Below, piece by piece: positions 1 to 55,213 of a stretch of DNA of 64,000 bases; the first letter of the stretch is position 1; the number at the start of each line of letters is the position of its first letter. A program made the translations under genes and the position numbers. Source of the stretch: Lophium mytilinum (taxonomy: Eukaryota); the NCBI GenBank assembly GCA_010093605.1, contig MU004183.1:2604001-2668000 (forward strand), written 5' to 3'. The notes below the pieces were generated by a model. The model was not told the DNA's origin and ran no database searches. It saw only the letters and a program-made list of their open reading frames with translations.

Positions 1-29
1 ATATTATGCGCAATTATATAGCTATAACA
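1..29 (-). repeat. Start of 3' LTR (continues off-window)
   Basis: 2-29 tattatgcgcaattatatagctataaca matches 8411-8438 tgttatgcgcaatcgtgtagctataaca with 4 transition-only mismatches. On the minus strand it begins TGT. Confidence 0.85.
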
Positions 30-43
30 CGTCTCCCCCCTCT
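30..43 (-). other. Polypurine tract of the Gypsy element
   Basis: Minus strand AGAGGGGGGAGACG immediately precedes the TGTTATAG LTR start. Confidence 0.8.
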
Positions 44-254
44 AAAGAAGCCCCTTAATTAAAGCGTCCTTATTGCAAGAGAGTTCTTTTTATACTAGAG
101 TATCTATAATCGCCTAAATATCTATTAAATAAAGTGCCTAATTATACTTAGGTAGGCTGTAAGTAAAGAAAGAAAATAAATTAATTTATAGAGAATTATT
201 TATTCTTTCTATTTTTATGCAGCCTTCTATAGCCTTACTATTTTAGTATAGTAA

Positions 255-355
255 TATTACTATACGCAGTATTACTATACATAGTATTACTCTATATAGT
301 ATTACTATACGCAGTATTACTATATATAGTATTACTATGCGCAGTATTACTATAA
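255..355. repeat. 15-bp tandem repeat (~gtattactatacgca x6-7) in the 3' untranslated region of the retroelement
   Basis: Directly visible reiterated agtattacta-N5 units with RIP-type variants. Confidence 0.85.
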
Positions 356-3300
356 GTAGCCTTATTTATTTAAACTAGGGCCGGCTATAATAGGGCTGTA
401 AGGAGCTATATAGCCTTTATAGCTACTAGCCTACTACTAGGTACTTATAATAATCTATATTATTATATTATATTAATTATTATACATGTCTATAGTTAGG
501 TCTTCTTAATAAATTAATTTAACCGCCGGTCCAGTAATTAAATTATATAGCTTCCGCAACGTTAGTTATATAGAGGTCTATAGCAGTAAGAATAGTAGCT
601 AAGATTAGCTTCTAGTCTAATAGTAGTTAAAATAATAAATAAGGTTCTAGTTTCTTAGGGTATTAGTAGTAGAAATCTATAATAAGGTGCGGGTAACTAT
701 TAGCGTAATTATAATTATCCTATTAGGGCTTATTATTCTATCTAATAAACTTAATCTTATATTATAGTATGCCTCTTTTTCTAATAGTAGGATTAAGACG
801 TCTTCTATCTAGACAGCTATCTATAACTTTCTTAGCGTTGCCTTCCTAGTATATAGGGGTTATTTTAATAGAGGGAGGCTTAGAATTACATTATTCTTTT
901 ATAGGGATAGCGTCGGCTAGATAGAGAAGCTATAGGTAGAATATAGAATAGATATTTACTATACCCTTAGGTAAGTTAAGCTTATATACGCTTCTATTTT
1001 TATAGCTTTCTAGAATCTTAAAGGGACCTAGCTTCTTAAAGTTAAGCTTCTTATTTAGTCGCGTTATTTTAATAAAGCGTCTATCTAGTATAACTTAATT
1101 GCCTGGATAATACGTCTAAGCTAGTTATTATCCGGCGTTAGTATATTTCTTTTACTTAGCCTAGGCCCATTTAATTTCTATGCAGAGAAACGCGCGTAGC
1201 TTATCTAGCTTATTAACGAGTTTATCCGCCAGCTTAGTAAGTTAAATTGTTAGTATAGTCGCGTTCTCTAGTAAACGCGCAGCTAGTGTAGTACCTACGC
1301 TAGAAATATAGCCTTTAGTAGCTATAAAGGGCGCTACTCTAGTAGAAGCATTTCTTAATAAGTTAGCTTTAAATTTAGCTATAGCAAGGAAATTATACTA
1401 GTTATTTTACTAGTAGTTAATATATACTCTAAGGTACTATTTTAGGCCTATATTAGTAATCTCTATCTATCTATCTATTTTAGAGTAAAAGGTAGTAGAG
1501 AGCTTTAGCTTTATACTAATACACTTATATAGATAAGACTAGAAGGTTAAGATAAATTATATTTCTCTATTAGAAATAATAGACTATAGATATTCTTTAG
1601 TGCGCTATACCTATTTAAGAAAGGCTTAGGCTACTTCTTCGGCGTCTATAGTAATTATAGAGATAAACTTACATATTTTAAAGAGTCTATTAATAACTAC
1701 TATAATATATTAGTAGTCCTATCTAAATTATAAGTATTTTAGTAGAGGGCTAATAAAATCCACTATTAGATTAGTCTAATACTATTTAGAAATAGAGAGT
1801 AGCTTAAGAAAGCCCTGCTTTATATTACATGCGTGCTTAATACGGTTGCATAGTTAGTAGGCCTTAATATAATAGTTAATATTAGAAGTTATCTATAGCT
1901 AGAAGTAGTATATTAAGACTCTATTATAAGTAGATATAGTTCTACTATACCCGACTAGTAGTGGCTTATAAAGGCTCTTAATAATAGCTAACTAGAGTTT
2001 CTCCTTAGTAGGAATGTATAGGCGGTCTTTTTAAATAAAGATAAGGCCGTTATAAATTATATAATTATAGAGTTTAAGCTTAACGCCGTAGTTCTTAATA
2101 ATATCTATAGGTAGGCGGCGTAGCTTAGCCCTAATAGCGTCTTTAATAGCGTTGCTAACAGCGTTATTAATAAGGGCTTCCTATATATAATCTACTATAT
2201 CTTACTCTATAGTACTATTAGCAGGGTTACTCTATAACTCCCCCTGCCTTAGTAACTTCTATAGTTCTTTATTAAGGTTACTTTAAGACTCCCCCTAATT
2301 AAGTTCTACTTTACTAAGGTTGTATAATATTACTATAAGGGAAACTACGTTATAGGTAACGCCGTTAGTTATAATATAAGCTAGTTTAATAGTATAGCGC
2401 ATTTCTAGTTCTAGGTTATAGTTCTTAAGAATAGTCTATTACTAGATTTTATAGCGCTTATTGTCTTTATCTAGTATATCGCCTAGGCGTCTAGTTAGTA
2501 AATTAGCCTTACTATTATCCTTGCCTGGCCTGTAAGTAATCTAAAAGTTAAACTTAGAGAGAAATTTAGCCTATCTAGCTTATCTTTAATTAAGCTGCTT
2601 AGTCTCTATAAAGTATTATAAGGTCCGGTAATTAGAAAGGACTTTAATTAGATTGCCGTAACTATATCTAGCAAGCTTAGTGCGCTATTCTTTAAAAGCG
2701 TAAATAATAGCGAGGAGTTCCTTATTATAGATCTAATAGTTAAGCTAGGCTGCGCTTATCTAATGTAATATAAACGTAATAGGGCGGAGGATGCCGTTAG
2801 CCTGCATTTAAGATAGTATCGCAGCCGTAATAGTATTAGATATATTATATTCTACCTATATTTCTAGATCTAGGTTAAAGTAGGCTATCTAAGGGGCGTT
2901 AATAAACGCCTGCTTTATTTACTTAAAGGAGAAGTCCTCTAAGCTACCTTCTTACTATAGGAAAGTAAACTACTTATAGACTTCTACTCTTATAAGTTAT
3001 ATAAGCGGCCCTATAATATTAAAATAGGCAATAATAAATTACTAGTAGAAGTTATAGAAACCTAGAAAAGCTTATATATTATAGAGGTTCCGTAGTTATA
3101 GCTAGTTAATAACTGTTTTAACTTTAGCTAGATCCATCTTAAGGCCGTTAACGCTAATAATAACGCCTAGGTACTTAACCTCTTATTTATAGAACTTGCA
3201 TTTTATAATATTAAGAAATAAGCTAGCTTTATAAAGTTATTAGAGGACTTTCTTAATATAACTAACGTATTCTTTAAGCGTTTCGCTAAAGATAAGAATA

Positions 3301-6300
3301 TTATTAAGGTAGGCTATATAGAAGTTGTCTAAATACTCTAAGAGAACGTTATTAATAAAGGCTTAAAATGTTGCTAGGGCATTGCATAAGCTAAAGGGTA
3401 GGATAGTAAATTTAAATAGGCCGTATCTAGTAAGAAAGGCCGTGTATTTTTTGTCTTCTTTGCGCATTCTAATAGCGTTAAAGGTAGTAATAACATTAAA
3501 TTTAGTATAATAGTAAGCATGCTTTAGTAATACTAAAGTGTCTTTTATAGCCGGTAGAACATTATAGGCCTTAATAGTAATAGTATTAAGGCTATAGTAG
3601 TCTATATAAATGCGGAGGCCTCCTCTAGGTTTATAAATAATAATAACTAGAGCAGTATACTAACTATTACTCTTTCTAATATAGCCTTTACTATATATCT
3701 TATTAATAAACGTTTTAATAACTAGTATCTTATCTTATAAGAGTCTATAGACTTTACGCGCTAGTGCCTTTATTTCTAGTTTAATATTAATATAGTAGTT
3801 AATATCTATACTATCTTTTACTTTATAACGCGGTAGTAGCTTATTAGCTTCCTTTAGGTTCTATATATTAAGAAAGCTGTAATATTCTATAGGTACTAAT
3901 ACTTTAAGTTTATTGCGGGTTATTAGTTTATGCTCTATCTTCTTAAAGAATTTCTATTAGTTGTCTTTTAACATTGCGTAGAGACTAATAGCCGCTAAAT
4001 TATTAGTAAAATTAGCTGGACCTAAGATAATATCGCTAGATTTATACTAGCGTCTATTAGCGCGCGCCTAAGCTTTAGCTTTCTTATTAGTAAGTACTAG
4101 CTTAAAGTATTTAGGCTATATATAGATAGTATCTTCCTCTAGTAACTACTAGAAGTTATATAAATATTTATTGCTAGATACTACGTTAATATTAAGTACT
4201 TTAAAAGCAGCGAGTTAAGCGTTAAGCTTCTACTAGAATAGGCGCTTATCTATACGGGCGACGGGGTCTTTAGACTATATATAGACTAGTTTATAATTAA
4301 CTAGGTATTAAGAATAATAGTAGTCTAAGTCTAGCTATATTATTTAGGTACTAAACTTTATATGCGCGTTGTGCATTATAAGCTAACCTATACTAAGAAT
4401 AATGTTATAGCCCTTAAGGTTATAGATTAGTGCCTAAAATTTATTATAATAGCTTCCAATCTATATAGTAACCTTAGCTACTTTATTAATAACGGACGTA
4501 GATCTGTTTAGTAGCTTAATGTTACGTAGAGTAGCTTTATAGATATTAAGCTTATAATATTTTATAAAGTCTATAGAAATAAATGCAAATCTACCGCATC
4601 TAGAGTCTATAAGAATGGTTAATTTAACTAATCTAGTTAAAGTAATAATCTTGCAGTTAAAATCCATTTATTTACTAGATAGAGGGGTAAGCCTAACAGC
4701 GCATATAGAGAGCTTAATATTAGAAGGTTTTAGAGGGGGTAACTTAAGCTCTTAAATATATATAAGGGCCTAAGCTAGCATATCTTCTAACTATCTCTAA
4801 CGATAACTTTTATTAGAGATTAGGCATTTCCCAAGCCGTTAGAATAGATAGCCTTATTATTATTATTATCTTAGCCTTATTTATCCTTATATTTATACTT
4901 ATATTAATACTTCTAATCGCTACTATAATTAAAAGCATTAAGTTCTATACTATTAATGCTAGCAGCAGCAAGGCGCTTATTACGCTAAGCCTCTAATATA
5001 GTCTTTCTAGCCATAGCATATTTAGAGTTACTAGCGCGGTAGTTCTTCTTAAAGCAGCTAAAGCAGCGTCCTTCCTTACTAAGGCGCAGGCGGACGTATA
5101 GTAGAACGCTTAGTAGTAGAATAGTAGTAGTCTTCTTAACTATAATACAGTTATTAGTCTTAGTAGTAGATACTTTACGCCAGGCGCAGTTAGAGTTATA
5201 ATAGCTATCCTACGCATATGCGTTATTTAAGCGGCGTGCTAAGATCTATATAGTAAGAAGCTCTTTATTAGCTTATTTTTCGCGTTAAATATAATAATAG
5301 TCCTTATATAGAATATTATCTTTTACCTAGTACTAGGTTAATAAACTAAAGTTAATATATTTAGCGAGATTCGTGCGCAGTATTTTTTTAAGGTAACAGT
5401 ATTAAGTCGCAAGGCTGTTATTAATTTTGCCGTACTTAAGCCCGTTAAGAATAATATTAAAACGTTGTAGAAAGTTAGATATCTTTTTATTATATCTCTA
5501 TTTTATGCCCTTACTATTAAGTTAGTTAAGAAGGTAATTATAATAAATAGTATTACTCTCTTAGAATATAGCGTCTAGATTCTATATAAGTTTCTTAAGT
5601 AAATAATATAGATTAGTAGATATAAGAAGACTATAGTCCTTAATAACTTTATATGCGCGTCCCTTATAATAACTAATAGTAAGTTAAATTTAAGTTATAG
5701 TAGTAGGGTAAGTCTACTAGTCTACTTAGATTAAGTAGATTAGGTAGTTCTTCTAGGCCGCGTATACTATAGCTCCTAATTTAAAATTCTATAAGTAGGT
5801 ATACTTAGGTTAAGGGCCTTATCTAAATTAAGGATAGACGGGCCCGTAGACCTATAGCTAAGTAAAACCGCCTAGTTAACTTAAATTTAGGTTACCCCCT
5901 CCTTCTCCAGCTATAGTAAAGTATTAACCTAGAACGCGGTTACATTAAAAGTTATCTAGGTTAAGGGTATATAGTCCTACTAGTAGTAGAGGAGAAGTAT
6001 TATTAGTAGAATTATAATTAGAGTAGTTATGCAGGTCCGCGTATAGATTATTAGGTTATTCTACTAATATATTCTACCGGGCTTAAGCTTTAAGCTAGGT
6101 AATTCTTATTAAGGCCTATTAGTATCTAGCTTATAGGTTATTAAGCTAACAGGTTTAGGCTTAGAAGTTAGCATGCTTTTTATTACGTAGGCGTTATACG
6201 CGGGCTAACTCTATTTATTTAGCCTTAAGTTTATAGTTAAGAATACAGACTTAAGTCCGGAGCTTAGCAAGTTTACTATTAGTAAGTAAATATTTTTTAT

Positions 6301-8237
6301 TTAGCTCCTTAACGTTAGCGTTAGCAGCATTCTATTCTTAGATAGCGACGTTTATTCTATACTTATAGTTACTACTATCTTAGTAAGCTATTATAATACA
6401 GTTCTACTACTATTCTAGTGCAAGTTAAACGTCTTTAATAAGGTCTTATAGACCTTATAGTTTATATTATTAGTAGACGCTATCTCTATAGCGTATCTTA
6501 AAGATAGAGCTATTAGCGCGCTGCGTAATTATAAGATATAACTGCTAATAGTCTTCCGCGCGAATTATAGTGTAGTATCTATTACTCTATTCTATGCCCG
6601 CTGCTTGCTAGGCTAGATTAGAAGTATTAAGTCCGGTAATAGATTTAACGCGGGTAGATTAGTGTTATAATAGAGATATATTAGGCAAGGGAATACTATA
6701 AATAGGTAGTATTCTTAAATATTTAGGGTTGCGGGACTAATATAGCTTAGAAACAGTATTATAGTATACCGTGGCGTTAGAAGTATTAATAGTAACGCCT
6801 TAATAGGCTATCTTAAGCTTATTAACTTTATCGTCCGCGTTATTACTAAATTAACGTTCTTTCTTCTAACAGTTATGTTTGTTAGCTAAGTTAAAGTTAA
6901 AGGAGGAGTTCTTATTATAGGCGGCGGTTGTATTATTAAGGCCGGTAGTTATATTATTAAGAATAGGTAAATTAAAGTTGCCTAGTACATAGCTACTAAC
7001 GCGGGAGAGTAGAAGTATAGTATTCTCTACCATAATCTCTACTAGAGAAGCTAGAGTAGCTAGTAGGGGTTTACCTAAGGTACTAAACTTATTTTAATAA
7101 TATTAGAGCTTAGCGGGTATTATAGAAGGAATTAGTCCAATTAATAGTTAAGAAGTAGTAGCTAATATCTACAACTAGAACTAAGTAGCGCCTTAAAAGG
7201 GTGGGTTAGCTAGCTAAATAAGAGGGGGCTGCAGGCTATAATTAATCTACGTTATATTATTATTATTATCTCCTATAAAAAGATGCTATAGGTTAGGGGC
7301 GCCTTCTTAATATAATATAATGCTAATGCGGCAGGGGTTAATAGAAATACTATTAGCGTCGCTAAATAGGCGTCTAGTAGTAGAGCGTCTACTAGAAACA
7401 GAATTACTAAACTATAGGGCTTTAGCGCAGTTAAAAGTATAGCGGTTAGAGTTAGCTATATAAGGAGGTAGAAAAAGATTAGTATAGAAGAAAGAAAATA
7501 TAAAGGGCTAAGGAGTTAAATTTATATGCAAGCTATTAATAAATTTAGGTTATTTACTACGCGCACCGGCCGCGTAGAAGGCTTAAGAAACTAGCGCCTA
7601 TTACAGTTAGTTGCGGCGTTATCGGGGGGGTTGTAGTAAATAATAATATTAGGTAGTCTATTTATAAAACGGGTAGTATATAGAAAATAGGTAGTCTATA
7701 GATATTTATTCTATAATACTAAGTATATATATAGGCTAGCTATTATTAATACTAAGCTTTCCGGGTGTTAGTCTCTATATAGTAATAGCAATTAATTAGT
7801 AATACTAGGCGCGCGCGCGCGCTATTATTAATACTAAGCTTTCCGGGCATTAGTCTCTATACAGCAATAGTAAAATAGATAGAAAAAGAAGTTATAGAGC
7901 CGTTAAAGTAATTAACAAGAATTAGTAAGAACTTTCTAGGGTGCTACCACTACCCCTCTATTATAGGGGCTTATTGCGGAGCGTCTACTATAGTTATAAA
8001 GTCTACTATCTAGCTTTATGCATAATAGCTAGATTACTTTATTAGGGGCCCGCGGCGCTACTAATAGGAGTACTATATTATTAAGTATAGTCTTTATTAG
8101 AGGTCCGTAACGCTACTAATAGTTACTATATTAGAAGGTATAAATATACTATAGCTTATTATAAGAGCGCACTCTATTATAGAAAATTTCTAGGGGTTGC
8201 TTCCATTACTCCCGGAAGCTAGGAGGGTATTTATCTT

Positions 8238-8438
8238 ATATTAGGGCTTAAGGTTAGAACGTTAGAATTATTAGATTAAATAGTATTAATATTAATAAAA
8301 GATAAATATAAGAGAGAAAGAGGTTTCTAGAACAGACGTTGTAATAACCTAAAGAGCGGAGTAATATTTACCTATTCCGCAGAGCCTCTATTACATAACC
8401 TCTAGTTACGTGTTATGCGCAATCGTGTAGCTATAACA
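8238..8438 (-). repeat. 5' LTR of the Gypsy element (outer end 8438 firm, inner boundary approximate)
   Basis: Terminal 28 bp matches window positions 2-29 and ends ...ataaca. The inner end cannot be fixed because the partner LTR is off-window. Confidence 0.6.
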
Positions 8439-11369
8439 ATATAATAGAATTAATTAGACCCGCCTTTCTAGGTATTATTAACCTATATAAAGTGCCTTTA
8501 TATATTCTACTAAGTTCTAGTTTTATAGCTATAATATCTTTAGAGAAGTAAATAGCTAGAGGTACTAGTACTATAAGATCTACTATTAATAGAAGGCCTA
8601 TATCTACTATATCTATAGTAGTAGAGTAATAGGAAATTATATATACTACCTAGCTAAATAGTATAGAGTATTTATTAGCTAGTAGTAGAAAGTATCTAAG
8701 AAGCTTTTAATAGTAGAATAACTAGAGCTAAGTATATTATAACTAGCCGGCTAAAGAATAATTAATACTATTATTTATAGTTTCTAGCTAATCTATTTTT
8801 TCTAGCTTCTTATTTAATAGCTAGTATATATAAAGATACTATTTCTAGCTATTAAGAATGCCTAATTCTAAGCCCTTCTTATCTACCTTAATAATACTAT
8901 AGAAGTAGATAACTATCTACTAGATTAAACTTCTACTTATATAATAGTAATAGTAGAGTTTAATTACTATTAGAAAATAGTTAAGACTCTACTTAGTACT
9001 GCGCCCGGAAGGCTATACTTCTTAATAGATATCTAGACGGCTTATAATTAGAAAGTACTACTAGGTATTAATATTTACTTTATAGATGCTACTAATATAT
9101 ACTAATTAATAGTTCTAGCTCTACCTAAGCTGCTAGCGGAATATAGTAGTATTAATATTAAGAATATTATTATATAAATCTTCTAGGTATGCTCTATAGC
9201 CTCTCTATATATAATTAGCCTTCCTATTTTATAATTAGCCTTCTTATTCTATAATATATTCTTTCTATCTACTAACGTCTCTTAAAGCTCTTTAGAATCT
9301 ACCTAGAGTAAGTTAGCTATATTATTACTAATAATATAATAAACCTTAATATATTTATACGCAAAATAGTATCCTTTAGTATTAATAAGTATAAATAACG
9401 GCTATATTACCTTAGCTATATTATTAACCTTATAGTCGGCGCACTATTTACTAGTAAATAAAAGGGTAACTTTACTACTAATTATAAGTATAATATCCTT
9501 AATAAATATATAGTAGTAGAGCTATAGGTATAGTAGTAGAATATTCTTAATAAGTAAAAAGTAATAGCTATAGGTATAGCGGTAACTTAGTTTAATTATA
9601 AAGCTTTACTATATTATAATATAGCTATTTAATAGCAAGCAGCGTATATAATGCCTTACTACGCACTAGATTAATATAGGTAAGAAGAGTAGCCTTCTAC
9701 CTATTAAGCCTATAGCTATAAGGTAGAATACTCTTAAAGTAATAATAGAGTATATAGTTAAGATATAAGCATCTATTAATACTATAGTTATAGAGAAGGT
9801 AATTAGTATATTAGTATTCTCTATATACTTTCTATTCTCTATATACTTACTAAGCTTATACTTACTATACTTATTTATACTTACTATACTTATTTATACT
9901 TACTATTATTCTATATACTTTCTATTTTCTATAGCCTTTTTATATACTTTCTATTCTCTATATACTAATATTATAAATTAAAATATATACTAGACTACTA
10001 TTACCTAAAATAGTATATAATAAGCACCTATAAAGCGACGTACTAAACTAAAGATTATTAACTAGTACCTCTTAGATAATAACTAGGTTATAATTATATA
10101 ATACCTAGAGCTCTTAAAGCTATTTAAGCTTACTATAAAGCACCTTAAAGGTAGAATCTATAAGGGAAGAAAGGGGTCTCTTTAGAAGGTACTGCCTATA
10201 TTTAAATATCTATTAGCTTATCTTAAAAGAAATAAGATATAATATACTATATACCTAGAAATATACTTTAAAAATAGTATTAATCTAGGTATATATACTA
10301 GTAGCCTTTCTATTTACCTTTAGCCTTTCTATTTACCTTTAGCCTTTCTATTTACCTTTAGCCTTTCTATTTACCTTTAGCCTTTCTATTTACCTTTAGC
10401 CTTCCTATTTAGCTAATAATAATAATAATAGCCTAGATAAAGCTTAATAAATACTACTACCTTACTAACTATTTACCGGCGTATATTACTACTATTATCT
10501 TTCATTCTATATATAAGTAGATATAGGTAGAGAAGAGGTAGCCGGTAGAGTAGACTATATTAGTAAAAGAGAAAGTACTATAGTTATAGAACTTAAAGTA
10601 TAAGAATATAGCTATTATTTAGCCTAAACTAATTCCTCCGCCGCCGCCGGACGTACTAGTAAATAATAATAATAAATAGTTTAGTACTAGCTTTATAAGT
10701 AGCTTTATAAGTAGCTTTATAAGTAGTATAAGTAGTATAACTACCTTAGTATTAGGTACGCTAGGTATAGGCTATAATAATAAATATATAAGGTAGCTTA
10801 CTTATAGAAATTATTATAATAATATTTAGGTAACTAACTCTATAGAGTATTAGGTTATAGAGCTTAAATACTCTAATTTCTTCTAGGTAGCGCGTATAGC
10901 TCTTAATTACTTATTAGTTCCTACTATAAGTACGTCTAATAAGTAAGACTTTAACTAAATAGGCCTACTTTAAAACCTAAGAAGATCTATATTATATACT
11001 AATATTATAGGTGCCTATATATTACTTACCTTATAGAATAAAAAAAAGGTAATTAATATGCTAGATAGAGGTCTTATATAAGGAAACTAGCTAAAGCGCT
11101 GTTAAGCTAATATAATTAATAAGAAGCCTGCTTCTACTTAGAATAAGATTAATAATAAGGACGTTAATAGTAATATAGAGGAGGCTATAGATAAAGATAA
11201 GTAACCTTAAGGTTTACTAAGAATTAGTAATTTTATACATTAATTAATTAATTAATTAATTTAATATTAATTTAATTGGTTTAATTAATTGCGTCCTCTG
11301 CTAACTAAGGCGTTAATTTCAACCAATTTCAACGCGCCCAATCGATTGATTGAACTGACGGTAGCCCTG
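8439..11369 (+). mobile_element. RIP-inactivated hAT (Restless-like) DNA transposon, 3' part; 5' part displaced by the Gypsy insertion
   Basis: Plus-strand relics: YLELLKLFKLTIKHLKGR...GSL*KVLPIFKYLL (~10102-10215), INLA*IKLNKYY (spliced across 10289-10431), and hAT dimerisation motif ALNYLLVPTISTSNK*DF (=LDYLSVPAMSxxxERxF, ~10896-10952). Subterminal (taat)n/attgattg repeats lie at 11241-11352 and the terminus ...ctgacggtagccctg reads CAG-start TIR on the reverse strand. Confidence 0.8.
10302..10411. repeat. 19-bp minisatellite tagcctttctatttacctt x5.7 inside a predicted intron of the hAT transposase
   Basis: Perfect copies start at 10302, 10321, 10340, 10359 and 10378, with a partial copy at 10397. 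Confidence 0.9.
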
Positions 11370-11664: not shown

Positions 11665-14600
11665 TCATGTAACAGCACCTCTCCGAGAAACTGATGCACA
11701 ATTCCCGGGGTCTTCAATTTCGTTGAAATGGGGTCTCCGTCGTAGCCGCGGCGCTGGCGTCGACGCGGGTATAGCCTGCTGCTCGCGCACTTTCGGGTTT
11801 GATGCAAGGAAATCTCCTCTGCGGTAGTTTGGCTCACGTTTGCTAGGTAGCAGGTGAGGCTCTGGATTTGCATATGTCCATGAGCTGCCGTTTAGTTGCA
11901 CCGGTTGAGTTGACAAACGCGGTGCTTCTTTCCAAGTGGGTTTTCTAAGATATCGGGGATTCTCGACGGACGTGGGCCAAGCAGGCTTCTTCATTGCGAA
12001 CGACTGATTGTGATGCTGCTTGGCCGGCAATAGTCCTGGTTCATTCTGGACGGAAGGTGGGCGGCTCTGAGTTTGCTCGTAATGACCGGTTTCGTCTGTT
12101 TGTACAGATCGTCCGTGAGTTCCACTGAAGATTCTATGTGTCTGATAGGCTGGCGCTGTGTCTTTGTCCTTTTGTCTCTGTACGAGTATACTAGTAGGTG
12201 TATTATCTACCTCTTGAGACCTTGCAGATGTCGTATCGGACATGGTCGCGGTTGGGTTGGTGATGGTTGATATCGAGAGGGTGTTTGAGGAGTGTCTCGA
12301 GGCTATGTCGCTACTTGAAGCACCAGAACTCAGGTAGATTGGAAGAGGCGACCGTGGGGATTCCACTTGCTGAGAAAGCTGTGGCGGTTGGCGTTGCGCA
12401 TGAGAAGCTCGAGGTTGGGCTGCATTCCGGAAAGGTTTCCATCCCAAATCGTTGATCCAAGACGCTGAGCCTTGTCCGATTATAATAGCCTCTGAGCCGC
12501 TTAGTTTTGGGATAGGCTTTATCTTCCTCTTCCCACTCTTCGGGACGAGCTGCTGAATACGATCACATTTGCAACTATCCGTGTGGGCCGTAGAGCGTGG
12601 ACATCTTTCAAATAAATGCTGAGAGCGGTGTAGTTGAAGACCGGTTAGTGTTACCTGTTCTCTATCCTCTGCTGACCCACTTTCAAGATACATCTCTTCA
12701 AGCGTGGTACTTTGGATCGCGAGGTAGTCTTTGTGTTTTGGCAGTTCCTTGAATTGTTTGCAGAGTCGCACTGAGGGATGTGGGCCGATGATATTCTGAA
12801 GACGGGTACCAAAGAGAATGACCGCGTTGCGATCGCGCGCCAAGTCCGGCCAATTCCCGCAGGTGGACTTCAGCTCAGTTTCCCGCAGACGGGGGTTGAG
12901 TTTCCTGTTTACTAGATCCATGTATTCCCAGCCTTGAACATGCTTTTTCCAGCTTAGCTTCATCTCGATTCCGGTTTCGGTGATCTCTGTTGTCTGCTCC
13001 ATGAATCCCTCAAGCATGGAGTATAGTTCCTGGACAAGGTGCTTGAAGCTTTTAGACTGTAGGCCGAGAGTTTCCATGCTCCTATCGCAAATCATTGGAA
13101 TATCTGCGTTGCTAAGCATTGCCTGTCTCACAGATTGTGGATCGGTCGGATCTGCGGACACAATCTGGACCGTCTGGCTAACCTCAAAACGCCTTAGAAC
13201 GTGCCGGTGGAAAATGATGTGAAGAATCGCGGTTTCTCCATCGGTATACCAGGCACGACGATCTTCCATATCCTGCAAAATGACTGGAATTTGTTTTGCA
13301 TCATCTAGCAGATCGGCATAGAATTGCGCCCTGTCCGCATGATGCATCCCATCCTTTTTCAATATTGCGAACTGCAGACTTCCGGCGCCAAATTGTTGAA
13401 ACCCAACGCTGGCTCCAGTGAGTGAGAGCACTCTCTTAGAAAGGTAGGATGTTTTAGTGTAGCCGACAGAGAGATAGTCATAGTCGTTGCTCGCTGTAGA
13501 CCGGTTAATCAGAGTGTCTTCTCGAAGGATATGAGGAGAATATACGGACCTAGGCGACATAAAGAATCTGAACACCACCCTAAAAAGCATTTGGTAGTAA
13601 CAAGAGCCTCTTCATCAAGCTCTCCAACAGAGAGCCGATCAGGAAACAAATGAACTGCTTCGTGATAGGAAATTCGACCTCCTGGTTTATTCAGAAGATG
13701 CCATTGAACAGAGTCGTTTTCGCGTTTGACTGGAACAAAAAGAAGCGAACGACCCTTGAGAACGTATCCGCCGCGGAAGCAAGTGGCGAGAGGTACGTTG
13801 GCAAGCGCTGCCATAATCTGCAAAGGAACTTCAAGGCCGGCCGCATTAGGGTGACGCTCCGGAATAGGAAAACTGGCGACCACAACTGAATCTCCAACGA
13901 GATCGTTCCAGCAGCTAGTTGGCTCTTCGGGAAGGAGAGGTAGGACTTCGTATCGTATCTGGAACGTCGGCTTTGGTGAATGATCAATATCTGTCAGATT
14001 TAACTCGGTGAAATTGGTGTACGAATGTGCTAATTGCCCAAGGGAAGTTCGACAAGCTGCTCCCAGCCATGCGAGCTGTTGACCAACTGCGACGATGAAA
14101 TCTTCCGAGCCGTTAACGAAGATCTTCATATCCCTCAACGAGATGTAAACTTTCTCTTGCAAAGAATTGTTCTGCTCTAGAATTCAGAAAGATTAGCGTT
14201 TGAGCCGTGGGTAAGCTACGAAGAGTTTACTGGCCACATACCGGACTGGAACTCGAAGTCCCTCTTTTTGATCGCAGTATTCAACGCATCAATCAGTCCC
14301 CATGTGTGAGTTGGCCAGTTTTGCCGTAAATATTCCTCAACCGTAGTCAACTGCGCATTGGTGGGCCCACCTGTGATAGCAATGATTGGACGGAGGTTGT
14401 GGGATGTTTGTGAAGGGTATTGCGCGTCGAGAAAACTCAGTACGTCCCACTTGGTAAAGAACTCCGCCTGAAGGAGGCCACCGCGTGTTGGTTGTATCAT
14501 TCCAGGACGCCGTAAAGCTAGTAGAATTCGGTGGTGAATCAGTTCCTTTTGATCACAGAACTGCCGCTCCACAATTGTTCTAAGTTCATCCACTAGCTCT

Positions 14601-16927
14601 GAGAACGCCGGATGCTCAGTTAGATATGTATATACAGTTTCGTCTTCTGTATTGATGTCATTGCTATCACCTTGATCCTGGGAATCGCTTTGACTCCAAC
14701 TGTCTGCATCTGTGAGGGACGACCCACCAATTTCACTAAGTGGGTTGGGAACAGTGTTGGCGATCGCATATGCAACTGGAACGCTGGAGAGCTCCTCCGC
14801 AAACCGATGCAAATATTGAGAGTCTTGACGGTTGTGTAGAGAGTCGTTGATGGCATCTTGGAACGGCTCATATGTCCAGTCACTTACTTTCTCTGCAATT
14901 GACTTCTCGGGAAGATTTTGCTCCTGCGCCTGAATCATGATGCTCGGGTACCTCCGCTCTGGGCGATCGAAGCCCCCCAATGCTTGGTAGTATTTGTTCA
15001 ATATGTCATTTCTGAGAATCCGTATAGCTTTAGACGCTTGCCTCTGGCGAGACCGCCGAGCAGCCCCTTCCATGACTTGCTTTGAGTAGCCCTTGATACA
15101 ATTTTTAAACTGCCGACGAAAAGTAGATTCTTCGAAAGCCTTGTCATGAGAGGTAAAGCATTTACTAGGTAAGTCTCGTATAAGTGCTCCCGAAAATTTG
15201 TTTATTACATCCGCCCGTTGCTGAGAAGTTAAGATGATGACCGAGTCCGCTGATATCGTAGATTGGCCATCAAATACAGAAGCTTCGGTATATCCAGTTA
15301 TATCCGCTTCCGATTCTTCAATTATGCGATGCCGTACGATCTGAGTTTTGTCGAAAGTTCTTGTTGGCTCGCCGGAGAAGGTGGTCGGAGCAGTCGACTC
15401 TGTGCCTCGAAATGACGAGCTTCTCAAGGTGTTGAACTCAGTTCCTCTAGAAGATTCGGCGAAAGCATTACCACCATGAGTTGAAGGTGGGCTACTAGGT
15501 ATATCAATTTGGGGAACGAGGAACGGTCTAGAGTTGCCAATGCGCCGGATGAGATGATCTAGGCGTTCGTATTCGGAGTCTTCATCAGTCGTCTTGACTA
15601 ACAAATCAGGAGTAAAGAACCCAGCTTTATACCAACCCTGCATTTCAATTCCTGAATAAGGGCCTCGAGTGTCACCTTGAGGATCTTGATAGATCCATCG
15701 TATCGTGTCATCCATGACCGTGGTCCGTTGCTGCGCAGCAGGTATATAATTAGACGCAGGGCTCGTTTCGTTCTGAGACTGTGCAGACGTAATTGCAGGC
15801 TGTAACTTTTCGCTCGGCACTGTCCTGGAGACACTGACTTCCTTTCTGAGATCAAAGCCGTGCTGTAATCTGTCAAGTTGAGCCTCTAATTCCTGGATGG
15901 CCTTCTGTTGCTCGTCGAATCCGGCGACGTTCTTTCGTGCTTTGTATAGATCCCTGATTGTCGAGACGGCCTTCCTTTCGTCCACTATCTTCATTCTACC
16001 CGTATTGATGTGCTTCTCAAGACGGTCAATCTCCCGGTCTACGTCGTTTACAGTTTGGAAGAGTGACTGTGCTTTGGCATCATCAAGTTCTTTCTGGCGG
16101 TTCTTAAAGTCCTGAGTGAGCTTTCTTATCTGCTCCAAAACTTTGCGGTCTCCTTGAGTGGGTTTTGTCGGTCGTTTGAGAGGTTCCCCAAAGATTGCAT
16201 CATTTCGATTGTTGGCACTGTCTAATTCGCGAATGATCTCTTCCTGTCTCCTCACAAGAAGGTCTAGTTCTTCCTGTGAATTTGAATCGGAGGGGAAGTC
16301 GCCTGAACGACCGTGACCGATCTTAGGCGTGAATGGGGTGAGGGAACCGAAAGTGAGGTTGCCCGGACGACGGCCACCCGTTTGAGGCGTGGCCAATCCT
16401 TCCTGTCCTCCTGGACCCAAGTTGTGTGAGACCTCAGTCTGCCCAGTAGCTGCGTTGCGTTTGGTATGCAGGTGGCTGAGTACCTCTTCTAAGGTTCCCG
16501 GTCCTTTACCACTTCCTCTACTCCCTTCTTTATCGTAGAAGGACTGCGCCTTTTTCCTAGATTTCTCAACAATCTCCTTTTGCTTAGCCGTATCCTTTGT
16601 CATGATGGGAACAAGATCCGTTGGTATCGGAGTCCCGAGCTTGAAATCCGCAGAAAACTTCTTCAGATCGTTGAGTTTGACGGCCTTGGACTCTCTCGCC
16701 ATGGACCTTTGCCTCTCTTGTCTCCTGAGCTTATCTGTAGCACTAAAGTGCTTGAAGGAATCGATTAATTCATCGTTCACGTACGTTGTCGCATCCCTCT
16801 CATGTGGTAAAGCGACTACTAGCGTGGGCCTGGACGAAGCCGTATCCAGCTGTGGTTTCTGAGAGAGACCATGCCGATCGGCATCTTCGACGCCGTGGCC
16901 ATTCGCATTGTCGCTCGGAGCCAACAT
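11665..16927 (-). CDS. ~1713-aa chimeric protein: N-terminal Pbp1-like, Bfr1-like and GYF modules + conserved fungal uncharacterised domain (often seen with Pfs/NLR-like proteins) + disordered tail
   Basis: Three ORFs join in frame via introns 14241-14177 (GTATGT..GCTAAT..TAG) and 13549-13494 (GTCCGT..CAG). Exons are 16927-14242, 14176-13550 and 13493-11665 (5142 nt). Core motifs: AQLTTVEEYLRQNWP, VGQQLAWLGAAC, CWNDL, GLEVPLQIMAALA, QWHL, GWEYMDLV. Confidence 0.85.
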
Positions 16928-17922
16928 CGCGGATCAACCAAAAACCGACAGAAAATAGTAAGAGACCCCGAAAATGAGATGAAAATTAGGAAGCCAGAAA
17001 CCAACCATTATCCGAGGTTAGAGCGCCAGCAATATAGGCATTCAGCCAGCTGCTCAGCCTCAGCCTTGCTCCGCCCCCGCCATGTTTGCCCCGCCTACAT
17101 GATTGGCAGATCATGGAACTCGCCAAGCTATGGGCACGGAGTTTCGTACGCGCTGGAAACGATAGCCCCCAGGGGTGTTTACGGAGGAATTGAGTTCTGC
17201 AGCTAGAGGGGACATGGAATTTCTTCTGGTCTTTCACATTGAGGTCCGGTTATTTCCGTCGACATTGCTTCAGCCTCATCTCAATCTCACCTCACTCTAA
17301 TGACCCAGAAAGGGGTTGCCATGGCATACGCCATTGGAACTCACATGTGGTCTGTCGAATCGCGTTCTAATGTGATAGATATTCTGCGCTGAAGTGTGAT
17401 TGCGGGAGGCTGACCAAGGCAGTCTTAGACTTGGCGAGCTAATGCATGTGCGTCAAGGTCACGTGTCGTTATCAAACTGCGATATATGATATCATCTAAG
17501 CTTACACAGTTGCGTAACATATCTGATAAGTAGGGCGATGAATTCTTCCCTTACATCTCAAGTCGTGCCAGGTAGGTTCGCTCCTGTTTCTTCTCACAGA
17601 AGACGGCGAGCTGGCTTTAGAAGCTACAAGGGTAAAATAACGCCTCCAACCGCCCAACGGCACTTAGCTCCCGTCCAATAAGATGACTAGAGCCAAAAGG
17701 GGAGCTAATACGTTAAAATTGGTAAGCATAAGCTAGCGCGCCAATTGACGCGTCTCTCTATGCAGAAACTAATTTTATATATAACCGTCTTACACTCGCT
17801 ATATAAGATGCTGAACACGCCCACTTTTTAAACGCTTCATTTTCGTCCTGTGACATTACGAGAAGCTGTGGAACAGGCGGAGCGTTCTCAGTCAGCCATA
17901 TCTGCAATTTACTTTACAAACC

Positions 17923-35751: not shown

Positions 35752-36804
35752 GCTCGACGCTTGCTATGGAAACGGCCGTTCGCAGCAGTCGTGACTCAAA
35801 ACGATAGGTAGGTGGACTCGACGCAATCTCGAGGACAAGTTGAAGCGTAAGTTGGGGAAGGTAATTCGTTGGCGAGCTTCGCATACCCCGCAACTCAGCT
35901 CAGAATTCGGCGCTTATCGGGTTGGAGTCTGAAAGGCTTGAATGCAGGCATTATGCAAGGCCAGTTCTGGCACCAGGGTAGTCGTGTCTTCTGCTCGTCC
36001 TACTAAAGCGAGACGCGAACATAATTTTTGATTCCGTCGAGCTCTCGGCGTTTGGCATCATGTGGTGTCGGAAGGTCAGAACTATCTTGCTGTCCAATCC
36101 TGTCGTGGCCAGTAGCCCTGAAGCTATTCGGATTGCAGAGCATTGCGTTGGGTCTTGCGAAAGTTTCCGTTTTCGAGGATTCGCCGGCTTGAATAGAGTT
36201 TCAGAGGATGTTATAGGGAGATTAGGTTGAAAAGAACAGGTTCTGGATGATGATAACTTGACAAGAGGGAAGTCGGGAAATGACAGACTAAGGCGGCCTG
36301 GGCGGGCATGTCTCGGAACCCGCACCCCACATTCTAGCTGATTCATCAAGGAGCGCCCTATTGTCCGAGGTTCTGGACTCTTTGCTCAAGCCCTCACAAC
36401 GGTGACTAACATTCTGATCTCTTACAAAGGTATTCTCACTCTATGTAATCGTGAAAGTCATATAAGCAGCTAAGTCACGCCATACTCACTGTGCTCCTCT
36501 AGAAGAAACCGCAGCCCCCATCCTAAGAGCACCAATTCTTAGATACGAAGCCACGAAAAAAGTCGTTCGTGATATGAATAGTATCAAGCTTGGGACTTTC
36601 AACTATAAGATCTGGACGCATTCAAAAACTCCACCGCAGGTTCCAAAAGTGCACCTCCAAAATCCGCAGGCATCTACACTTCGAGAAGTGCGAGGAACCT
36701 CGCCAGATATACGACATCATACAGCGCGCCGTTTTCATCGGCAGATTTTCGTTGAACGCAAGTTTGATCGGTCGCATCCCACTGGGCTGAAAGCGTCGCC
36801 CAAT

Positions 36805-37755
36805 ATGGCTCGGAGCGCGTCTACCACAGCTCAGAGTGTCGACGCGCCACTGACCGCGTCGGCCACATTCCTCGTCCTTTCTATCACCGACAACCTCACT
36901 GCAATCAAGACAGTTCGCTCGACTCTCGCAAAGATCAGCGATATTTCGAAGAATGTCGCTATCCGTGATCTCGGGGCCTCTTTCACGTGCACTGTCGGCA
37001 TTGGCAGCAATGTCTGGGATGGCGTCACCGGTCTACCACGTCCAGCAGAGCTTCATCCGTTTCGCGAAGTCAAGGGCGGCGTCCATACTGCTGTGTCAAC
37101 TCCTGGGGACATTCTCTTCCACATCCGCGCAGAGCGACGCGACCTATGCTTTGAGTTTGAGCGGCAGTTGATGGAACTTCTAGGCGACTCTGTTTCTGTG
37201 GTCGACGAAACCATAGGCTTTCGGTACTTTGATCTTCGAGATCTTCTTGGGTTTGTGGACGGAACTGCCAATCCCGTCGGGCCTGCTGTGCCTCCATCAG
37301 TTCTCGTCGCAGAGGAGGATACGCTAGCTATCGGTGGCAGCTACATCGTTATCCAAAAGTACTTACACAACCTCAAAACATGGCGCGCTCTATCTACGGA
37401 GAAGCAAGAGGCCATTATCGGCCGCACCAAGCTGGACAATGTGGAGCTTGACGACGCCGCAGAGGGCCATCAGGCAGCACACAAGACGCTTGCGACAATC
37501 GAAGATGAGAATGGCGACGAGCATAGCATCCTACGCGACAACATGCCTTTTGGCTCGCCTGGGGCGGGTGAGTTCGGAACGTACTTCATTGGATATTCGC
37601 GCCGACTTTGGGTTATCGAGAAAATGCTGGAGCGCATGTTCATTGGGGAGCCACCGGGACTACACGATCGCATACTCGACTTTTCGACAGCTGTAACAGG
37701 GACAGTCTTCTTCGCTCCGTCCGCCAGCCTACTTGCTAGTCTCAATGATGGGTAA
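36805..37755 (+). CDS. Dye-decolorizing (DyP-type) peroxidase, bacterial class B/P-like, intronless
   Basis: TPGDILFHIRA, GFRYFD.RDLLGFVDGTANP (GxxDG), GGSYIVIQKYLH, IIGRTK, proximal AAHK, ILRDNMPFG, GTYFIGYS, DRILDFS..TG..FFAPS. Start taken at ATG 36805 (MARSAS). Confidence 0.93.
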   Translation: MARSASTTAQSVDAPLTASATFLVLSITDNLTAIKTVRSTLAKISDISKNVAIRDLGASFTCTVGIGSNVWDGVTGLPRPAELHPFREVKGGVHTAVSTPGDILFHIRAERRDLCFEFERQLMELLGDSVSVVDETIGFRYFDLRDLLGFVDGTANPVGPAVPPSVLVAEEDTLAIGGSYIVIQKYLHNLKTWRALSTEKQEAIIGRTKLDNVELDDAAEGHQAAHKTLATIEDENGDEHSILRDNMPFGSPGAGEFGTYFIGYSRRLWVIEKMLERMFIGEPPGLHDRILDFSTAVTGTVFFAPSASLLASLNDG

Positions 37756-53696: not shown

Positions 53697-55213
53697 CTAC
53701 AACTGTGCTTTCGTGCCATTTTCTAGCTCTTGATAATCTTGAATCCAGGCCACCTTGTCGCTAAGATATTTTTGCGCCCGCAAGTCTCCTGAACGCGCAT
53801 GGCCTTCAAAGTTTTCTGCTCGAGCAGCACGACCGCATAGTCTACCAAGTTCCCCGCTAGCTTCGCTGCTCTTGACCTCTTGATAAGTCACTGTTCGCAA
53901 GAACTTGCCAGCCCAGAGTCCGCCTGTGTACCTCGCTGCCTTCCTCGTGGGAAGGACGTGATTTGTCCCAATGACCTGCAACTCGCGTGTTAGATTTCAA
54001 GCGTAGGCAGGACGTTCACAACAGCAGAGCTGCGGCAACGTACCTTGTCTCCATAAGAAACACATGTCTTCTCTCCCAGAAATAGAGCTCCGTAGGCGGA
54101 CATGTTTTCCAGTGCATCTCGAGGTCGCTTCGTAAACACCTGTACGTGCTCGCTGGCGTATTCATCCGCCAACTTCCAAGCTTCGGCCAGGCTGTCAACC
54201 ACTATTACTTCACCAAACGCATTCCAAGATGCTCCAGCAGTGACACCCGTGGAAAGGTTCTTCAAAAGCTCGTCGATGATTTCGATAGATTTTCGACCTA
54301 CAGCCTCTGATGTCGTGATGATAACCGCGGGAGAGTCCGGACCATGCTCTGCTTGTGAAAGTATGTCCGTGGCGATGGTGAATGGATCCGCTGTTTCGTC
54401 CGCCACCAGGAGGATCTCTGTAGGTCCGGCAAACAGATCAATACCGATTTCGCCAAAAAGCTGTCTTTTGCCCTCGGCCACGAAAGCATTGCCTGGACCT
54501 GCGATGAAATCAACTTTGCGAATCGTTTGGGTACCAATTGCCATGGCTGCTACAGCTTGAACTCCCCCTAGGATGAAGATCTCGTCGGCGCCTGCCAGAT
54601 GCATTGCGGCCACGGTTGCATTGGGGATCTTGCCAGCGATAGGCGGCGTGCATCCTACAACATGTCGAACACCGGCAACCTTCGCGGTGAGAATGGTCAT
54701 GTGGGCCGAAGCAAGGAGTGGGTACCGTCCGCCCGGGATGTAGCTACGCAAACACATCAGTCCAGCGATTAAGGCCATGTGGTGTGGCGTACTCACGCGC
54801 CAACGCAGTCGATTGGAACATTTTTCTGGCCAAGGAAGACTCCCTTTGATAGTGTTAGTGTCATAGGAAGAACCCGAACAGCCGAAGGGATTGCTCACGG
54901 GGCGTATTTCCAGCTCGAAGTCTCTTATCGAGTTCCGTTGTGCGGCTGCAAAGGCTTTGACGTTTGACTGCACTTGCTTAATATCGTCAATCGTCTGTTT
55001 CGGGCACGCGGCTATCGCAGCCAAAGTCTCTTCTTGGGTGAGCTTGAAAGATTGAGGTGCCCATTTATCAAATTTCTTAGAGTACTTGCGAACAGCGTCA
55101 TCTCCAGTCAATCGTATTTCGTCGATTACACCCTTGACAATGGCGCTGACATCAACTCTGGGTGTATTCGCCGCCTCGGCTGTGGAACCGCTCTTGAGGA
55201 ACTTATGGCCCAT
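53697..55213 (-). CDS. Stand-alone histidinol-dehydrogenase-family (HisD/HpsN-like) NAD/Zn dehydrogenase, multi-exon
   Basis: YIPGGRYPL, GGVQA, GPGNAFV.E.KR, IDLFAGPTE, SQAEHG, SEH, YGDK|VIGTNHVLPT, YTGGLW, EGH. Confidence 0.9.

What the first reader, a model, noticed from the sequence alone, without database searches (positions are those of the whole stretch)
15497..16795. Chimeric gene carrying captured fragments of three mRNA-granule proteins (Pbp1, Bfr1, Smy2-GYF): possible fungal 'integrated decoy' sensor
Seen in sequence: exon 1 of the 11665-16927 gene has three discrete modules separated by low-complexity linkers. aa~45-128 (16795-16544) reads ..LIDSFKHFS..KAVKLNDLKKFSADFKLGTPIPTDLVPIMTKDTAKQKEI. 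aa~218-355 (16276-15863) reads ..FQTVNDVDREIDRLEKHINTGRMKIVDERKA..RKNVAGFDEQQKAIQELEAQL. aa~397-477 (15739-15497) reads QQRTTVM..RWIYQDPQGDTRGPYSGIEMQGWYKAGFF..LIRRIGNSRPFLVPQI. From recall, these match the conserved post-LsmAD block of fungal Pbp1/ataxin-2, the coiled-coil core of Bfr1, and the GYF domain plus flanks of Smy2/GIGYF. These are normally three separate housekeeping genes, all acting in translation control, P-bodies or stress granules. Here only fragments are present (no Lsm/LsmAD, no full Bfr1). They are fused to an unrelated, expanded fungal domain (QQLAWLG/GLE/GWE.MD motifs) that I associate with Pfs/NLR-like loci, and the gene sits ~300 bp from a TE block. Inference: three functionally linked captures suggest selection, e.g. 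baits for viral or antagonist effectors targeting RNA granules (analogous to plant NLR integrated domains), or a granule-targeting address for an effector domain. I know of no description of this architecture.
Basis: partly seen in the sequence, partly recalled or inferred. Interest (0 to 1): 0.9.

Follow-up and report, generated by a model that had tools for sequence, protein, structure and literature searches.

The report
Fungal protein patched from translation-factor fragments
A real, transcribed fungal gene joins short pieces copied from three housekeeping mRNA-control proteins to a large conserved domain of unknown function, and its relatives carry pieces of further translation proteins, so the family looks built to dock onto, or watch over, the translation machinery.

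Summary
The minus-strand gene 11665-16927 is identical to the annotated Lophium mytilinum protein BU16DRAFT_602962 (1713 aa). Its first exon, a single ORF, carries three discrete blocks. The first matches Pbp1/ataxin-2: 73% identity over 84 aa to Lophium's own intact Pbp1. The second matches Bfr1: 46% over 101 aa. The third is a Smy2/GIGYF-type GYF domain with its flanks: 62% over 114 aa, Pfam E 9e-16.

Contigs of one public run skip both introns exactly and cover all three blocks.

A ~900-aa conserved core follows. It carries a precomputed PF28131 label. Two predicted models of it found no PDB match, and Pfam, PADLOC and NCBIfam gave no hit.

Of 20 family members collected, 8 carry fragments of mRNA/translation proteins: Pbp1 in 6, LARP1 in up to 3, Bfr1 in 2, eIF4G MIF4G in 1, GYF in 1. 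Others carry a kinase, zinc fingers, NACHT (one with ankyrin repeats) or PNP_UDP.

The Pbp1 fusion looks old, and the neighbouring transposon block looks incidental. Whether the blocks act as docking modules (my preferred reading) or as integrated decoys was not tested. The window protein has no NOD domain.

The parts
11665..16927 (-). Whole gene, three exons, 1713 aa. Identical to Lophium mytilinum BU16DRAFT_602962 (P0211).
   Evidence: ORFs and translations. P0211 matches the window through both exon joins.
14242..16927 (-). Exon 1: aa 1-895 plus the first base of codon 896. Holds all three captured blocks and the N-terminal half of the core in one ORF.
   Evidence: Joint 14176/14242 in a contig.
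16544..16795 (-). Pbp1/ataxin-2-derived block, aa 45-128. It corresponds to the conserved block after LsmAD in the parent (P0230 aa 464-547).
15851..16153 (-). Bfr1-derived coiled-coil block, aa 259-359. It aligns to Bfr1-like P0059 aa 91-191.
15449..15787 (-). Smy2/GIGYF-derived block, aa 381-493. The Pfam GYF domain proper is aa 411-455 (15563-15697).
14243..15271 (-). N-terminal half of the conserved core, aa 553-895. Mostly helical; the model is of low confidence.
   Evidence: BLAST among family members. Structure model.
14177..14241 (-). Intron 1, 65 nt, GT..AG.
   Evidence: Sequence. One contig skips exactly this stretch.
13550..14176 (-). Exon 2: start of the most conserved part of the core, with the QQLAWLG, SCW, GLE, KGRS and QWHL motifs.
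13494..13549 (-). Intron 2, 56 nt, GT..AG.
12487..13493 (-). Exon 3, first part: the rest of the conserved core, to about aa 1440.
11665..12486 (-). Exon 3, last part: low-complexity C-terminal tail (aa 1441-1713) and the stop codon. 61% identical to the Mytilinidion orthologue over aligned positions.
1..11300 (.). AT-rich block, GC 0.22-0.35, flanking the 3' end of the gene. Context only, not part of the gene.
924..3635 (-). Degraded Ty3/gypsy pol relic (RVT_1, RNase H, Tf2-1 SH3), readable only with stops taken as X.

Best explanation
The gene encodes a real, transcribed member of a family of filamentous ascomycete proteins. The family is defined by a ~900-aa core of unknown fold, which carries a precomputed PF28131 label.

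In one clade of this family, the N-terminal region ahead of the core is a mosaic of short conserved blocks. The blocks were copied from proteins of the poly(A)-mRNP and translation-control network: Pbp1, LARP1, eIF4G, Bfr1 and Smy2/GIGYF. Fast-evolving, low-complexity linkers separate them.

The most likely working model is inference, not shown. The blocks keep their parents' binding surfaces: GYF for proline-rich motifs, the Pbp1 and Bfr1 blocks for their mRNP partners. Together they act as multivalent docking modules. They bring the core to translating or stalled mRNPs (the 40S-head neighbourhood, stress granules), where the core carries out its unknown activity.

Shown here: the origin of each block, the single ORF, the splicing, conservation in a sister genus, and the family-wide pattern. 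Inferred: retained binding, localisation, and any activity of the core.
For: - Block origins rest on database-wide E-values of 6e-34 (GYF-type), 5e-26 (Pbp1) and 5e-13 (Bfr1-like), plus pairwise alignments.
- All three blocks and half of the core lie in one ORF.
- Contigs of run X1 skip both introns at GT..AG and lie on each block.
- In the Mytilinidion orthologue (P0065), aligned positions are 75% identical in the Pbp1 block and 76% in the Bfr1 block. Linkers are 50-56%, the C-tail 61% and the core 83-89%. The blocks are therefore under more constraint than the linkers.
- The GYF block scores well above Pfam's threshold over the full model length, positions 1-44 of 45.
- Family pattern: 8 of 20 members carry mRNP-derived pieces from five different parent proteins. 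All 8 fall in one 13-member core clade with 100/100 support.
- In yeast proximity labelling, Pbp1, Smy2, Scp160 and the LARPs Sro9/Slf1 share the 40S-head neighbourhood (PMC8583833; I read only the passages retrieved).
- The window protein has no NOD domain.
Against: - No binding or localisation data exist.
- The captured blocks evolve much faster than their parents. The two species' Pbp1 proteins are 94% identical overall, against 75% for the captured block. The GYF block sits on a long branch, 0.49 against a median of 0.2. Relaxed constraint or diversifying selection would fit a bait equally well.
- Block content turns over between close relatives. GYF is missing from the annotated Mytilinidion protein, which instead has an extra Pbp1 piece and a LARP1-like motif.
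- Within the same 13-member clade, 2 members carry other domains (NACHT with ankyrin repeats; Zn_clus) and 3 carry nothing recognisable.
- The core's function is unknown, so 'delivery of an activity' has no identified activity behind it.
Confidence: 0.45

Rival explanations
1. Integrated decoy or bait. The blocks mimic translation and mRNP proteins that a mycovirus, toxin or antagonist effector attacks. Modification or binding of a block switches on the core, which triggers a defence response or cell death.
For: - The partners of the core across the family (kinase, zinc fingers, NACHT with ankyrin repeats in one member, PNP_UDP) resemble the domain assortments of immune receptors.
- 2 of 20 members have NACHT and 2 of 20 have PNP_UDP.
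- Block content turns over between sister genera, and the blocks evolve faster than their parents.
- Five different parents from one functional network suggest selection for that network.
- Putative integrated decoys have been proposed for fungal NLRs of the Sordariales, for example a CHK-2-like kinase (PMC12258605; I read only the passages retrieved).
Against: - The window protein, and 18 of the 20 members, have no NOD domain.
- There is no paired helper or NLR cluster in the window.
- No effector is known.
- In the two NACHT-bearing members the core lies C-terminal to NACHT, so its role there is unclear.
- The core matches no PADLOC defence model.
Confidence: 0.2
2. Evolutionary relics. An ancient partial duplicate of Pbp1 was fused to the core, and later exon-shuffling or retroposition added other fragments. 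These no longer do anything specific beyond serving as a disordered N-terminal extension.
For: - The blocks diverge far faster than their parents.
- The GYF block is absent from the annotated Mytilinidion protein.
- In Phialocephala the Pbp1 block has decayed to 34% identity.
- 3 members of the same clade have no recognisable module.
Against: - The blocks are better conserved than the flanking linkers, 75-76% against 50-56%.
- The reading frame is intact over 903 aa.
- The same clade drew repeatedly on one functional class of parent protein.
- The GYF block still matches the full Pfam model.
Confidence: 0.15
3. Artefact. A mis-assembly or a merged gene model joins unrelated genes.
For: No single RNA contig spans all three blocks. 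Some distant family architectures, such as NACHT-ankyrin-core, could be merged gene models. I did not check this.
Against: - The blocks and half of the core share one stop-free ORF.
- Both introns are confirmed by contigs.
- An independent genome, Mytilinidion, has the same Pbp1-Bfr1-core order.
Confidence: 0.02

Closest known systems
Plant NLR-ID receptors ('integrated decoy' model) and the putative integrated domains reported in Sordariales NLRs (PMC12258605)
   Same: A duplicated fragment of a housekeeping protein is fused in frame to a larger chassis. The fused module differs between relatives. Kinase and zinc-finger modules occur in the wider family.
   Different: The chassis here is not an NLR. 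The window protein has no NACHT or NB-ARC domain and no repeats. Several fragments from different parents are stacked in one protein. No effector or signalling partner is known.
Pbp1 / ataxin-2
   Same: An 84-aa conserved block is 73% identical to the segment that follows LsmAD in the species' own Pbp1.
   Different: It lacks the Lsm (SM-ATX) and LsmAD domains that define the family. The intact gene is elsewhere in the genome (P0230).
Smy2 / GIGYF GYF-domain proteins
   Same: A complete GYF domain plus about 30 aa of flank on each side is 62% identical to fungal Smy2-like proteins. GIGYF2 is the best solved match.
   Different: Only about 113 of the parent's roughly 1500 residues are present, embedded in an unrelated protein.
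Bfr1 (polysome/mRNP-associated coiled-coil protein)
   Same: 101 aa align at 46% to residues 91-191 of a Bfr1-family protein.
   Different: Only about one fifth of a Bfr1 protein is present.
PF28131-bearing fungal proteins (label precomputed in the protein collection; the family is not in the local Pfam copy)
   Same: The core aligns end to end with 19 other proteins that all carry this label, E from 2e-69 down to 8.5e-253.
   Different: Only the clade containing the window gene has mRNP-derived N-termini. Other members carry a kinase, C2H2 or Zn_clus, Clr5 with PAH, NACHT or PNP_UDP.

Membership tests
GYF domain (PF02213), Smy2/GIGYF type | Match to the GYF profile above the curated cutoff | tested here: met
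   57.7 bits against a cutoff of 25.7, aa 411-455, profile positions 1-44 of 45. 63.9 bits on the excised block.
GYF domain (PF02213), Smy2/GIGYF type | Closest relatives are Smy2/GIGYF rather than CD2BP2-type GYF proteins | tested here: met
   The best PDB sequences are GIGYF2 (E 4e-9) and GIGYF1. The flanks align to fungal GYF proteins of 1200-1580 aa.
Pbp1 / ataxin-2 | Lsm (SM-ATX, PF14438) and LsmAD (PF06741) domains | tested here: not met
   Neither is found in P0211. Both are found in the control P0021.
Pbp1 / ataxin-2 | The conserved block that follows LsmAD | tested here: met
   73% over 84 aa. A profile built from the Pbp1 blocks gives E 3e-38.
Bfr1 | Full-length similarity to the roughly 450-530-aa Bfr1 coiled-coil protein | tested here: not met
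   Only aa 259-359 align, to P0059 residues 91-191 of 509.
PF28131 core family | End-to-end homology of the ~550-aa most conserved region with proteins carrying the label | tested here: met
   The profile search returned 19 of 19 hits carrying PF28131, with P0211 at E 2e-250. The label itself is precomputed. The model is absent from the local Pfam copy, so its own cutoff was not tested.
Fungal NLR (STAND) proteins | Central NOD domain (NACHT or NB-ARC) | tested here: not met
   No such Pfam hit in P0211. NPHP3_N/NACHT is found in 2 of 20 relatives, P0221 and P0229.
Fungal NLR (STAND) proteins | C-terminal ANK, WD40 or TPR repeats | tested here: not met
   None in P0211. Ankyrin repeats occur only in P0221.
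Integrated-decoy receptors | The integrated module derives from a separate host gene that persists in the genome | tested here: met
   Intact Lophium Pbp1 (P0230) is on another contig. Intact Bfr1 and Smy2 of Lophium were not retrieved.
Integrated-decoy receptors | An effector binds or modifies the module, and this activates the receptor | not testable with these tools
   Needs experiments.

The most novel reading that the evidence does not exclude
The core family is a previously unrecognised fungal surveillance system for the translation machinery. Integrated copies of the segments of Pbp1, LARP1, eIF4G, Bfr1 and Smy2 that attackers hit serve as baits. The attackers would be mycoviruses, ribotoxins or antagonists' effectors acting on the closed-loop mRNP. 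The ~900-aa core, a new fold, converts bait engagement into translational shutdown or cell death, without needing a NOD domain.
Probability: 0.15. Interest if true: 0.9.

Novelty: new variant of a known kind. Interest (0 to 1): 0.62.

Why it matters
If the blocks are functional, this family shows selection repeatedly assembling a multivalent address for the mRNP and translation network from pieces of its own components. It would also provide a large, conserved fungal domain of unknown fold that is likely to act on that network.

It is a concrete, testable candidate for two ideas. One is a new granule- or polysome-targeted effector. The other is a first case of stacked integrated baits outside the NLRs.

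The block boundaries also mark which short segments of Pbp1, Bfr1, LARP1 and Smy2 may work as self-contained interaction units.

Tried and rejected
- **Whole genome:** none is held for this window. Paralogue searches in the genome itself were therefore impossible.
- **Lophium's own Bfr1 and Smy2:** not retrieved.
- **Pfam on the core:** nothing above threshold. There is a weak DUF6606 hit in 1 of 20 members (E 0.015-0.03), which I treat as noise.
- **ESM Atlas on the core:** no usable hit.
- **Structure of the core:**
  - The aa ~889-1442 model has pLDDT 72.7. Foldseek against the PDB gave a best E of 1.4. VIA-align against 48,161 chains gave a best Z of 3.8, covering only residues 1-91.
  - The aa 490-895 model has pLDDT 58. 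Foldseek gave a best E of 1.1.
  - These blanks do not show a new fold. The models are medium to low confidence and span more than one domain.
- **PADLOC and NCBIfam:** no hit to the core in any of the 7 of 20 members scanned (P0211, P0214, P0215, P0216, P0224, P0227, P0228). The only hits were to the kinase of P0216, the PNP domain of P0224, and a sub-threshold IS110 hit (16.9 bits against a cutoff of 140) in the coiled-coil of P0211.
- **RNA runs:** no RNA holder is listed. The single holder, X1, is of unrecorded kind. Stretches of the gene without contig cover are not evidence of anything.
- **Independent capture of the Pbp1 block in different classes:** the maximum-likelihood tree suggests it. 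The AU test does not reject a single origin (p = 0.094), so I do not claim it.
- **Placing the GYF block among Smy2 orthologues:** unresolved.
- **Earlier findings of this scan:** nothing on record.
- **Literature:** 'PF28131' returned 0 papers. Pbp1 + Bfr1 + Smy2 returned 0. LsmAD + NACHT returned 0. The five papers holding both 'fungal NLR' and 'integrated domain' include PMC12258605, whose text has no occurrence of GYF or LsmAD.
Full report
**What is in the window**

On the minus strand a three-exon gene runs from 16927 to 11665. Exon 1 is one 903-aa stop-free frame. GT..AG introns lie at 14241-14177 and 13549-13494. The spliced product is letter for letter the 1713-aa protein P0211, annotated in NCBI as a hypothetical protein (BU16DRAFT_602962) of Lophium mytilinum and in UniRef as a 'GYF domain-containing protein'. 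The window therefore comes from this Dothideomycete.

Only one public run holds the stretch. Its kind is not on record. Its contigs match at 99% or more and skip exactly the two introns. Other contigs lie on 16546-16755 (Pbp1 block), 16042-16301 (Bfr1 block), 15567-15733 (GYF) and 16761-16990 (5' end). The run therefore looks like cDNA, and the gene is transcribed and spliced as annotated. No single contig spans all the blocks. They share one ORF, however, so this matters little.

**The three modules**

- **Pbp1 block.** Residues 45-128 are 73% identical over 84 aa, without gaps, to the segment about 120 residues beyond the LsmAD domain of Mytilinidion Pbp1. That protein (P0021) carries SM-ATX and LsmAD. 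The block is equally close (72.6%) to residues 464-547 of Lophium's own intact Pbp1, P0230. P0230 is 1099 aa and lies on a different contig.
- **Bfr1 block.** Residues 259-359 are 46% identical over 101 aa (E 7e-22) to residues 91-191 of P0059. The Atlas places P0059 with three clusters named 'Nuclear segregation protein Bfr1' at score 0.98.
- **GYF block.** Residues 381-493 are 62% identical over 114 aa to a Phyllosticta GYF protein. They contain a full GYF domain (Pfam E 9e-16). Its nearest solved relatives are GIGYF2 and GIGYF1.

Searches of 5.8 billion and 1.84 billion proteins returned essentially these classes of hit, plus one protein that matched in three stretches. The window protein has no SM-ATX or LsmAD domain and only a fifth of a Bfr1 protein. 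These are fragments, not the housekeeping genes.

**The fusion is conserved**

The three-stretch hit is P0065 from Mytilinidion resinicola, a sister genus. It has the Pbp1 block, then a second Pbp1 piece (58% to P0230 residues 358-409), then a LARP1-like motif, then the Bfr1 block, then the core. Its annotated protein has no GYF domain.

Identity between the two chimeric orthologues, over aligned positions:

| Region | Identity |
|---|---|
| Pbp1 block | 75% |
| Bfr1 block | 76% |
| Linkers | 50-56% |
| C-terminal tail | 61% |
| Core | 83-89% |

The two species' true Pbp1 proteins are 94% identical overall. The captured blocks are thus more constrained than their linkers but evolve far faster than their parents.

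The C-terminal flank of the Smy2-derived segment (..PSS....NAF, just before AESSRG) can be aligned in Mytilinidion and Byssothecium. Loss of GYF in those lineages is therefore as plausible as gain in Lophium. I could not test this without their DNA.

**The core and its family**

From about residue 490-550 to 1440 the protein is conserved in a family I collected with two searches. It has 20 members in all. All carry a precomputed PF28131 label that is not in the local Pfam copy.

The most conserved ~550 aa have 15 invariant positions across the 20 members (G16, Q27, W30, C82, W83, R101, G107, K134, P142, W152, H153, G193, W194, D277, R282 of the folded piece).

An AlphaFold model of this part (pLDDT 72.7) found nothing in the PDB by Foldseek (best E 1.4) or by VIA-align (best Z 3.8). 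The N-terminal half of the core modelled poorly (pLDDT 58) and also found nothing. Pfam, PADLOC and NCBIfam give no hit to the core. Its function is unknown.

**What relatives carry in front of the core**

| Module | Members | Evidence |
|---|---|---|
| Pbp1-derived block | 6 of 20: Lophium, Mytilinidion, Phialocephala (weak), an unnamed JGI protein, Exophiala, and a Mollisiaceae protein that also keeps part of LsmAD | |
| eIF4G-type MIF4G | 1: P0214. Complete domain, Pfam E 1e-35; best PDB match yeast eIF4G1, E 8e-34 | |
| LARP1 N-terminus | P0214: about 300 aa, 58% identical to the N-terminus of a metagenomic gene that goes on to a La domain; a further locus of the same scan (L006) shows a LARP1 HEAT region | |
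| LARP1 motif (KWVxVPYxPxVxFN) | Byssothecium (weak, E 1.5e-4) and Mytilinidion (motif only) | |
| Bfr1 block | 2 | |
| GYF | 1 | |
| Protein kinase | P0216 | |
| C2H2 or Zn_clus fingers | P0215, P0226 (weak in P0222) | |
| Clr5 with PAH | P0224 | |
| NACHT, N-terminal to the core | 2 (one also with ankyrin repeats) | |
| PNP_UDP, C-terminal to the core | 2 (in one, by eye only) | |

In a tree of the core, all 8 members with mRNP-derived pieces fall in one 13-member clade with 100/100 support. The same clade holds 5 members without such pieces.

**Age and mode of capture**

The members that carry a Pbp1 block come from three classes and lie within one core clade. The simplest reading is an old Pbp1-core fusion, followed by lineage-specific gain and loss of further blocks.

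A tree of the 83-column Pbp1 block places the Lophium-Mytilinidion pair (SH-aLRT 96) among Dothideomycete Pbp1 sequences and places the other family blocks elsewhere. That would suggest repeated capture or gene conversion. The AU test does not reject a single origin (p = 0.094).

The AT-rich block that ends about 330 bp from the stop codon contains a degraded Ty3/gypsy pol relic about 8 kb away. Since the fusion predates the Lophium-Mytilinidion split, I see no reason to tie the capture to this element. The other neighbours are ordinary: transporters, DyP peroxidase, SDR, histidinol dehydrogenase, a Zn-cluster factor. There is no NLR cluster.

**How it probably works**

All five identified parents act on poly(A)-mRNPs or translation initiation. 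In yeast, Pbp1, Smy2, Scp160 (recalled, not from any call: a Bfr1 partner) and the LARPs Sro9/Slf1 were all captured in the neighbourhood of the 40S head (PMC8583833; passages only).

The architecture is several short conserved binding blocks strung on disordered linkers ahead of a large folded domain. That is what one expects of a protein docked multivalently onto mRNPs or granules. I therefore favour the docking reading (0.45).

The integrated-decoy reading (0.2) is not excluded. It is favoured by the fast evolution and turnover of the blocks, and by the immune-like partners (NACHT, PNP_UDP, kinase) elsewhere in the family. Putative integrated decoys have recently been proposed for Sordariales NLRs (PMC12258605; passages only). 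But the window protein lacks any NOD domain, and nothing is known of a trigger.

Relics without function (0.15) and artefact (0.02) are less likely, for the reasons given under the rival explanations.

**Novelty**

The gene model and the core family are catalogued, but only as 'hypothetical protein'. My searches found no paper on PF28131, none joining Pbp1, Bfr1 and Smy2, and none joining LsmAD with NACHT. The Sordariales NLR paper does not mention GYF or LsmAD. Supplementary tables of that paper were not read and could list related architectures.

I rate this a new variant of a known kind: modular capture of host-protein fragments onto a conserved chassis. What is unusual is that several fragments are stacked, and that all come from one cellular machine.

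Noticed in passing
P0067 (218 aa, unnamed JGI record; not in the window): This protein carries two tandem copies of the Pbp1 post-LsmAD block (profile E 6e-35 and 6e-33). The block has therefore been duplicated outside a normal Pbp1 context at least once more.
   Followed up: partly
window 16330-16370 (aa ~186-200 of the gene); also in P0065 and P0212: A short motif, 'RRPGN[LI]TFGS[LI]' (or 'SSLTFGSI' in P0212), is shared by three family members in the linker after the Pbp1 block. It is absent from all stored Pbp1, GYF and Bfr1-like proteins. It may be a remnant of yet another parent protein. The origin was not identified.
   Followed up: partly
window 924-3635, minus strand: A Ty3/gypsy pol relic (RVT_1, RNase H, Tf2-1 SH3) lies inside an 11-kb block of GC 0.22-0.35. 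It has no ORF over 98 aa, which is consistent with RIP-type decay.
   Followed up: partly
P0216 and P0224 (Orbiliomycetes; not in the window): In these two relatives the core is followed by a PNP_UDP ('Pfs') domain, and preceded by a protein kinase (P0216) or by Clr5 with PAH (P0224). In P0221 and P0229 the core lies C-terminal to a NACHT domain. I did not check whether these are true single genes or merged gene models.
   Followed up: no
window 36466-37755 (+) and 53990-55222 (-): The neighbours include a DyP-type peroxidase and a histidinol dehydrogenase, among ordinary transport and redox genes. Nothing suggests a functional cluster with the chimeric gene.
   Followed up: no
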